From Daphnia carinata (lineage: Eukaryota): a stretch of DNA of 64,000 nt. Under the pieces are notes generated by a model. The model was not told where the DNA came from and searched no databases. It saw only the letters and a program-made list of their open reading frames with translations. Position 1 is the stretch's first letter. Each line of letters begins with the position of its first letter. The position numbers and the translations under genes were made by a program. Location of the stretch: the NCBI RefSeq assembly GCF_022539665.2, contig NC_081334.1, positions 3,038,001 to 3,102,000 of the forward strand. Direction: 5' to 3'. This document shows positions 13,058 through 13,791 of the stretch, one piece after another.

Positions 13058-13791
13058 ATGGCGGATGTTCGATTTTCAGTTCTTTCACCTTTATTTTGGA
13101 CTGCCATTTGGATGATGGTTAATGCAGCCAACTGCCAAATTTGGTCTTATGATGATGAGGACGAATGGCAAAACGAATGCAGCTATCCGGAATGTGACGA
13201 TAACAGCCAACCAATAACTGAAGACTTTGGGGAAAGTTTTTTACCTGACGATGGCGAAAGAGATCAAGGTAATTCATTTCATGGGACCAAAAGTGTTGTA
13301 GCATCTATACATTTCTTATCTAGATTCATTGCTTATTCACAATCTCTGTTTTAGGTTTTTCTGAATCATCTTCGGGATTCGGGTTGGACAAAAATTCATG
13401 GGACTACCAAATCTTGCATAAGACGATCTTTGCCGAGGCTAGAGGTGAACCCGAGCTTGGCCAGCAAGCAGTTGCTTGGGTCATCAAAAACCGAGCTGAT
13501 CAAAATCAAGCGTATTGGGGAGGTAACACGATCGCTGGCGTCTGCCTTCAACCCTTCCAGTTCGAATGCTGGAATTCGGACAGGAGCTATCTGATAGATG
13601 AGGCTATAAGAAGTGACCCGGAGGCCTTCAATGCCATTGATGTTTGGCTGCCAGAAGTCTATTTAAACCCTGATCCAACAGACGGAGCTGATCACTACAA
13701 TAATCCCGACAAGGAAGGGTACCCTCCTTGGACTAGCAATGTCAATCCCGTCATTAAAATTGGCAATCATCAATTCTATAAAAGCAAATGA
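13058..13791 (+). CDS. Secreted SleB/CwlJ-like cell-wall hydrolase (Hydrolase_2), about 215 aa (exons 13058-13268, 13355-13791)
   Basis: LHKTIFAEARGEPELGQQAVAWVIKNR...TIAGVCLQPFQFECWN...DPTDGADHYNNP...PPW...KIGNHQFY is the Hydrolase_2 signature. It is joined by a phase-1 intron to a signal-peptide plus acidic-linker exon. Confidence 0.9.

What the first reader, a model, noticed from the sequence alone, without database searches (positions are those of the whole stretch)
13058..13791. Domesticated bacterial/phage-type cell-wall hydrolase with an intron and acidic pro-region
Seen: an intact Hydrolase_2 signature including the AEARGE motif, fused through a GT-AG intron to a signal peptide and an Asp/Glu-rich linker. 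It sits among animal genes, so contamination is unlikely. Established: the family is mainly bacterial and phage, the Glu of this motif is catalytic in SleB, and horizontally acquired cell-wall hydrolases have been reported in ladybird beetles. Inference: an HGT-derived secreted antibacterial enzyme whose acidic N-terminal region may be an inhibitory or targeting pro-piece.
Basis: partly seen in the sequence, partly recalled or inferred. Interest (0 to 1): 0.8.

Follow-up and report, generated by a model that had tools for sequence, protein, structure and literature searches.

The report
Water flea's secreted acidic cell-wall enzyme
This water-flea gene belongs to an already described family of animal enzymes that likely came from bacteria long ago, and this copy has gained an extra front exon with a predicted export signal and turned strongly acidic, so it likely breaks bacterial cell walls outside the cell, most likely in the gut.

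Summary
Exons 13058-13268 and 13355-13791, joined over an 86-nt GT-AG phase-1 intron, give a 215-aa protein identical to RefSeq XP_059350921.1 of Daphnia carinata. It has a Pfam Hydrolase_2 domain, the SleB fold and an intact Glu98. The family is known: Li et al. 2021 (PMC7807722) report cwh genes in Daphnia and list two D. carinata loci. In my tree the protein falls in one animal clade, next to short Daphnia paralogs. It is therefore likely a duplicate of an old acquisition, not a fresh transfer. Not found in print: this paralog carries a predicted signal peptide, although Li et al. say non-ladybird homologs lack one. It is also acidic throughout (mature pI about 4.1; the 17 most acidic of 124 clade domains are this paralog). 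That matches the pattern of digestive lysozymes and argues against a charge-neutralising pro-piece. Residues 26-50 are as conserved as the enzyme. They may be a relic of the neighbouring PAN-domain genes, but that signal is weak (49 of 3000 shuffles, post hoc; DNA test not significant). Expression, secretion and activity are untested. Verdict: new variant of a known kind, moderate interest.

The parts
13058..13268 (+). Exon 1 (70 codons + 1 nt): predicted signal peptide and acidic Trp/Cys segment
   Evidence: same model as XP_059350921.1
13058..13132 (+). Predicted signal peptide, aa 1-25 (cleavage site between aa 24 and 27 uncertain)
   Evidence: pattern and hydropathy; helix 12-25 at low confidence in the model; 48-68% identity to orthologs
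13133..13207 (+). Conserved acidic segment aa 26-50 with Cys26, Cys41, Cys46; possible PAN-module relic
   Evidence: 22 of 25 and 23 of 25 identical to D. sinensis and D. magna; PAN test suggestive only
13269..13354 (+). 86-nt GT-AG intron, phase 1
   Evidence: a 73-nt phase-1 intron at the matching site is inferred for D. galeata-type DNA from frame compatibility of P0003 and P0079
13355..13791 (+). Exon 2: rest of the linker, Hydrolase_2/SleB catalytic domain (about 13399-13788) and stop
   Evidence: Pfam; PDB 4F55 and 4FET by sequence and fold
13435..13437 (+). Glu98 codon, catalytic-position glutamate (first E of AEARGE)
   Evidence: aligns to the first E of SleB GESRGE; invariant in 62 of 62 rows of A1; that this SleB Glu is the catalytic one is recalled
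11546..12550 (+). Upstream neighbour: signal peptide + PAN exon, 66-nt phase-1 intron (11868-11933), weakly expansin-like domain; same two-exon layout
10182..10541 (-). Neighbouring small PAN/apple-domain gene
   Evidence: PAN_4 E=7e-5
6531..6887 (-). Second small PAN/apple-domain gene; best collinear match to exon 1

Best explanation
The gene encodes a Daphnia paralog of the animal cell wall hydrolase (cwh, Hydrolase_2/SleB) family that is predicted to be secreted and likely cuts bacterial peptidoglycan as a lytic transglycosylase, most likely in the gut. Shown here: gene structure, family, fold (predicted model), intact Glu98, place in one animal clade, and low charge of the whole mature chain. 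Inferred: (1) a short cwh without signal peptide, inherited from an old bacterium-to-animal transfer, duplicated in the Daphnia lineage; (2) one copy gained a 5' exon through a phase-1 intron, giving a signal peptide and an acidic tether; (3) the enzyme lost Lys/Arg and gained Asp/Glu, as digestive lysozymes do, which would resist trypsin and suit the gut of a filter-feeder that swallows bacteria; (4) Glu98 would cleave the MurNAc-GlcNAc bond and leave 1,6-anhydro ends, as in SleB; (5) the conserved segment 26-50 likely stays attached and binds something (gut lining, cations or substrate) rather than blocking the enzyme.
For: Model identical to RefSeq, with orthologs in two more species. Fold match to SleB only: 3 of 106 Foldseek matches at E<=0.001, all SleB. 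Domain pLDDT 88-97. Tree of 110 rows: 17 of 17 named animal rows on one side of a 100/99 branch, apart from 21 bacterial and 18 phage rows; acidic paralog clade 99/90, in a 15-row group with the D. pulex short form at 93/93. The 17 most acidic of 124 clade domains are this paralog; 9-10 Lys+Arg against 14-15 in short Daphnia forms; mature pI about 4.1. Low pI with few trypsin sites marks digestive lysozymes (PMC3020801, passages). Recombinant ladybird cwh1 limited Bacillus subtilis growth (PMC7807722).
Against: No expression, tissue, secretion or activity data were seen. Activity is published only for ladybird cwh1, which has no signal peptide. The lysozyme paper itself reports a low-pI enzyme with defensive activity, so charge does not fix the site of action. 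The 17 acidic rows are near-copies of one clade, not independent cases. The AU test did not reject placing the acidic clade on the prokaryote side of all other animal rows (p=0.345), so the root of the animal clade is unresolved. The 93/93 branch is unstarred and the bootstrap had not settled. No named ladybird sequence was in my tree. The signal peptide is by pattern only, and the D. galeata model (P0003) shows none.
Confidence: 0.55

Rival explanations
1. Secreted immune effector acting in haemolymph or on the cuticle, like the role proposed for ladybird cwh; possibly active on endospore cortex of Daphnia parasites such as Pasteuria ramosa (recalled as an endospore former).
For: Ladybird cwh1 is induced by B. 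subtilis and limits its growth (PMC7807722). SleB acts on spore cortex. The gene sits among PAN and weak LysM-like secreted genes.
Against: Net charge -24 is opposite to the high-pI pattern of defensive lysozymes. The protein scores 57 bits against a cut-off of 236.5 for the spore SleB equivalog. Ladybird cwh2, the secreted form, was not induced by infection.
Confidence: 0.25
2. The acidic N-terminal region is an inhibitory pro-piece that is cut off to activate the enzyme.
For: Segment 26-50 is as conserved as the domain. It is disordered in the model, as many pro-pieces are.
Against: The domain is acidic, so there is no basic charge to neutralise. There is no dibasic or RxxR site, and only R68 and K83 lie in the linker.
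Confidence: 0.12
3. Separate, more recent transfer from a bacterium or phage into Daphnia.
For: AU test does not reject a basal position of the acidic clade (p=0.345). Li et al. leave multiple transfers open.
Against: 62-71% identity to short Daphnia paralogs against at most 45% to 95 prokaryote and phage domains; tree.
Confidence: 0.04
4. Catalytically silent peptidoglycan-binding protein.
For: No activity measured. 3 of 124 clade domains lack the Glu, so such forms exist.
Against: Glu98 and the near-invariant clade motifs are intact; domain 88-90% identical across three species.
Confidence: 0.04

Closest known systems
Animal cwh genes (Li et al. 2021, PMC7807722), including ladybird cwh1/cwh2 and Daphnia homologs
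   Same: Hydrolase_2 domain, intron, animal flanks, conserved Glu; two D. carinata loci listed in Table S4; short and signal-peptide forms coexist in one lineage.
   Different: The paper says non-ladybird homologs lack a signal peptide; this one has a predicted one plus a 60-aa acidic region. The D. magna RefSeq model XP_032787080.2 is 5'-partial, which may explain the miss (inference).
Bacillus SleB catalytic domain (PDB 4F55, 4FET; TIGR02869)
   Same: Fold (Foldseek E about 1e-6, TM 0.79 on target), 31-32% identity, aligned Glu.
   Different: No PG_binding_1 domain in the Pfam scan; far below the equivalog cut-off; cortex specificity untested.
Pseudomonas phage Hydrolase_2 endolysins (e.g. 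PAJU2, phiAH14a)
   Same: Same domain, about 39-40% identity.
   Different: Outside the animal clade by identity; IMG/VR phage rows fall outside it in the tree.
Digestive lysozymes (oyster cv-lysozyme 2; vertebrate c-type as cited in PMC3020801)
   Same: Shift to lower pI and fewer trypsin sites relative to paralogs.
   Different: Different family and fold; an analogy of function only.

Membership tests
Hydrolase_2 (PF07486) | Profile score above gathering cut-off | tested here: met
   69.9 bits against 27
Hydrolase_2 (PF07486) | SleB fold with Glu at the end of the first helix | tested here: met
   model helix 86-99 holds Glu98; Foldseek 4FET/4F55; alignment. The catalytic role of this exact SleB Glu is recalled; the structure papers were not held
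Hydrolase_2 (PF07486) | Lytic transglycosylase activity on peptidoglycan | not testable with these tools
   needs an assay
Animal cwh clade (Li et al. 2021) | Host gene: intron and eukaryotic flanks | tested here: met
Animal cwh clade (Li et al. 2021) | Groups with other animal cwh apart from bacteria and phage | tested here: met
   17 of 17 named animal rows on one side, 100/99; no named ladybird row in the tree; midpoint root only
Ladybird cwh2 (secreted type) | Orthology with cwh2 and shared splice sites | not tested
   no named ladybird sequence was returned; Fig. 1 and the .fas supplements could not be read
Spore cortex-lytic SleB equivalog (TIGR02869) | Score above 236.5 bits and N-terminal PG-binding domain | tested here: not met
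   57 bits; no PG_binding hit
PAN/apple module (for residues 26-60) | Pfam PAN match and full Cys set | tested here: not met
   no PAN hit at E<=1 in 4 of 4 Daphnia proteins; pLDDT <50
PAN/apple module (for residues 26-60) | Remote homology to the neighbouring Daphnia PAN genes | tested here: inconclusive
   49 of 3000 column shuffles, reversed-profile control 823 of 3000, D. galeata 301 of 3000; hhalign probability 4%; DNA best 50 of 500

The most novel reading that the evidence does not exclude
A bacterial-type wall-cutting enzyme was re-domesticated in Daphnia by exon capture: a duplicate of the signal-peptide-plus-PAN exon from the adjacent PAN gene cluster was spliced onto a short cwh, decayed into a conserved acidic binding module, and the enzyme was acidified into a gut enzyme for digesting bacteria. 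This would be a second, independent origin of a secreted cwh beside ladybird cwh2, with the donor exon family still next door.
Probability: 0.18. Interest if true: 0.68.

Novelty: new variant of a known kind. Interest (0 to 1): 0.42.

Why it matters
It corrects a published statement that only ladybird cwh genes gained a signal peptide, and shows a horizontally acquired enzyme being re-tooled after duplication. Daphnia is a tractable model that eats bacteria and hosts well-studied bacterial parasites. A matched pair, a short neutral cwh and a secreted acidic cwh, makes the question of digestion versus defence directly testable. The transfer itself is already in print, which caps the surprise.

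Tried and rejected
No whole genome is held, so copy number outside the window was not counted; tblastn finds one copy inside it. RNA runs: no RNA holder was listed; this is no evidence either way. Complex prediction of residues 26-62 with the domain: no answer, score 0.00, no evidence either way. ESM Atlas on D. magna residues 24-80: no usable hit. The metagenome scan returned 9 loci at 50-63% identity, none recognised as the acidic paralog, so no ortholog exon-1 DNA was obtained. PAN relic at DNA level: not significant in 8 of 8 comparisons, and upstream DNA not similar in 4 of 4. The PAN profile did not rank exon 1 in the top 15 domain hits among 1279 six-frame segments of the window. Single-sequence fold of the neighbour's expansin-like domain failed (pLDDT 33); PDB and plasmid searches gave nothing useful. 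Contamination rejected: intron, animal flanks, identical RefSeq model, orthologs in two other species. Earlier findings of the scan: none shown. Repeats around the gene: chance-level only.

Full report
Observation. The sequence shows ATG at 13058, an exon to 13268, an 86-nt GT-AG intron and a second exon 13355-13791. Splicing in phase 1 gives a 215-aa open frame. Exon 2 has no Met in frame, so it cannot be read alone. The product is letter-identical to P0070, XP_059350921.1 of Daphnia carinata. I did not see what read support stands behind that RefSeq model. D. sinensis (GHT06_016511) and D. magna (OUZ56_030580, OUZ56_030585) have 214-aa models with the same N-terminus. For D. galeata, 30 codons of the model P0003 are compatible with a shifted reading of the metagenome call P0079, ending at a possible GT donor. 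This implies a 73-nt phase-1 intron at the matching site; it is inferred from proteins, not from DNA. Flanking ORFs match CNOT11, kinesin, BBS2 and a Tyr kinase (7 of 11 proteins scanned had a Pfam hit). Contamination is rejected.

Domain. Pfam Hydrolase_2 scores 69.9 bits against a cut-off of 27. The only PDB sequence hits are SleB 4F55 and 4FET. The AlphaFold model (14-row alignment) has pLDDT 88-97 over the domain and under 50 over residues 1-78. Its 3 strong fold matches of 106 are all SleB. Glu98 aligns with the first Glu of SleB's GESRGE and is invariant in 62 of 62 rows. Of 124 clade domains, 120 matched my Glu pattern, one more has the Glu on inspection, and 3 lack it. PMC12331253 (passages) states that SleB has an essential catalytic glutamate. 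That it is this residue is recalled, because the two structure papers were not held. The protein is not a spore SleB equivalog (57 against 236.5 bits).

Origin. The homolog search returned 66 proteins among 72 candidates; those named to a species are Daphnia, rotifers, nematodes and flies. Li et al. 2021 (PMC7807722; I read parts 1-3 of 7 of the text, passages, search rows of supplement 1 and all of supplement 2; figures and .fas files not seen) already describe a monophyletic animal cwh group within mainly Proteobacteria, including D. magna. Their Table S4 lists two D. carinata loci; I did not establish which is this gene. My tree used 110 of 338 distinct domains, hand-picked: 17 named animal, 21 bacterial, 18 of the 80 IMG/VR loci, and 54 unlabelled. 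All 17 animal rows lie on one side of a 100/99 branch. The acidic paralog forms a 6-row clade (99/90) within a 15-row group with the D. pulex short form (93/93, unstarred) (LG+G4, bootstrap not settled, midpoint root). Identity is 62-71% to short Daphnia forms, 47-58% to other animals and at most 45% to 95 prokaryote and phage domains. Against this reading, an AU test did not reject putting the acidic clade on the prokaryote side of all other animal rows (p=0.345). Duplication within Daphnia is the best reading, not a proven one.

What differs from print. [quoted passage not shown] Here three Daphnia species have a hydrophobic N-terminus of signal-peptide pattern (weakest in D. carinata; no SignalP available). 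The older D. magna RefSeq model is 5'-partial, a possible reason for the miss. Searches for Daphnia with 'cell wall hydrolase', 'spore cortex' and 'Hydrolase_2', and for later cwh papers, showed no description of this form (listings only, open-access library only). PMC11871716 (passages) treats ladybirds only. Li et al.'s unread alignments may hold this protein.

Charge. The acidity is not confined to the linker. The domain has net -8 to -13 and 9-10 Lys+Arg in five orthologs, against about 0 and 14-15 in four short Daphnia-type forms. The 17 most acidic of 124 clade domains all belong to this paralog (near-copies, one event); the clade median is 0. The mature chain has pI about 4.1 and net -24. 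The late Cys of the WTxNC motif, kept in 82 of 124 domains, is replaced by Val or Ile. PMC3020801 (passages) links lower pI and fewer trypsin sites to digestive lysozymes, and also reports one low-pI enzyme with defensive activity. This favours a gut role without proving it. It speaks against an anionic pro-piece masking a cationic enzyme, and there is no dibasic or furin site.

The N-terminal segment. Residues 26-50 are 22 of 25 and 23 of 25 identical to the orthologs, like the domain (88-90%) and unlike the signal peptide (48-68%), so the segment is constrained. In D. galeata only acidity and a loose Trp/Asp pattern remain, without Cys. By eye it resembles the first half of the PAN modules encoded next door. 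The same neighbourhood is seen by locus tag in D. sinensis and D. magna. The upstream gene has the same layout of signal exon, phase-1 intron and second domain, and an intact signal-PAN-cwh fusion exists in a metagenome (P0104). Tests are mixed. A PAN profile against the mature segment was reached by 8, 62 and 877 of 2000 shuffles for D. magna, D. carinata and D. sinensis. The joint test gave 49 of 3000, the reversed profile 823 of 3000 and D. galeata 301 of 3000. A segment profile ranked PAN proteins 6 of the top 7 non-orthologs among the proteins fetched, best E=0.05; hhalign probability was 4%. DNA alignment to the gene at 6531 is collinear from the start codon over about 170 nt but is reached by 50 of 500 codon shuffles. 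The idea came first and the tests after, so I give PAN ancestry about 0.3.

Mechanism and verdict. Most likely this is a secreted peptidoglycan lytic transglycosylase that arose by duplication and 5' exon gain from an older acquired gene, works through Glu98, and is acidified for work in the gut (0.55). Rivals are an immune effector (0.25), an inhibitory pro-piece (0.12), a separate transfer (0.04) and an inactive binder (0.04). It is a member of Hydrolase_2 and of the animal cwh clade by the tests run, it works like SleB by inference, and it is not a SleB equivalog. Novelty: new variant of a known kind. Interest 0.42.

Noticed in passing
window 11546-12550 (+): Two-exon gene: signal peptide + PAN, 66-nt phase-1 intron, then a 205-aa Cys-rich domain with a weak expansin EXLX1 match (E=0.002, below cut-off). 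No Pfam or PDB hit; single-sequence fold failed. Possible second foreign-type gene.
   Followed up: partly
window 8155-8848 (+): Duplicate of the PAN/expansin-like gene lacking about 300 nt of the second exon relative to the 11546 copy; likely broken.
   Followed up: partly
window 3805-3978, 4733-4954, 6531-6887, 10182-10541 (-): Tandem array of small PAN/apple genes and fragments in repeated blocks; similar cluster by locus tag in D. magna and D. sinensis.
   Followed up: partly
window 16439-16759 and 19346-19687 (+): Two small Cys-rich ORFs with hydrophobic N-termini inside a 1.9-kb duplication (16203-18105 / 19116-20968, 87%); weak LysM match for the first (E=0.097), none for the second.
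   Followed up: no
P0104, P0118, P0044, P0119-P0121: The animal-clade cwh domain is fused to different modules: PAN (P0104), B-lectin (P0118), weak CBM14 chitin-binding (P0044) and TPR repeats in Rotaria.
   Followed up: partly
P0128, P0135, P0140: Three clade members lack the catalytic-position Glu; P0140 also has a hydrophobic N-terminus.
   Followed up: no
L002 3001-3372 and L007 3001-3309: One 94.6-kb metagenome contig carries two cwh copies about 12 kb apart; the L002 copy is short and without a signal peptide.
   Followed up: no
window 49906-50456: GC-rich tandem repeat open in several frames on both strands.
   Followed up: no
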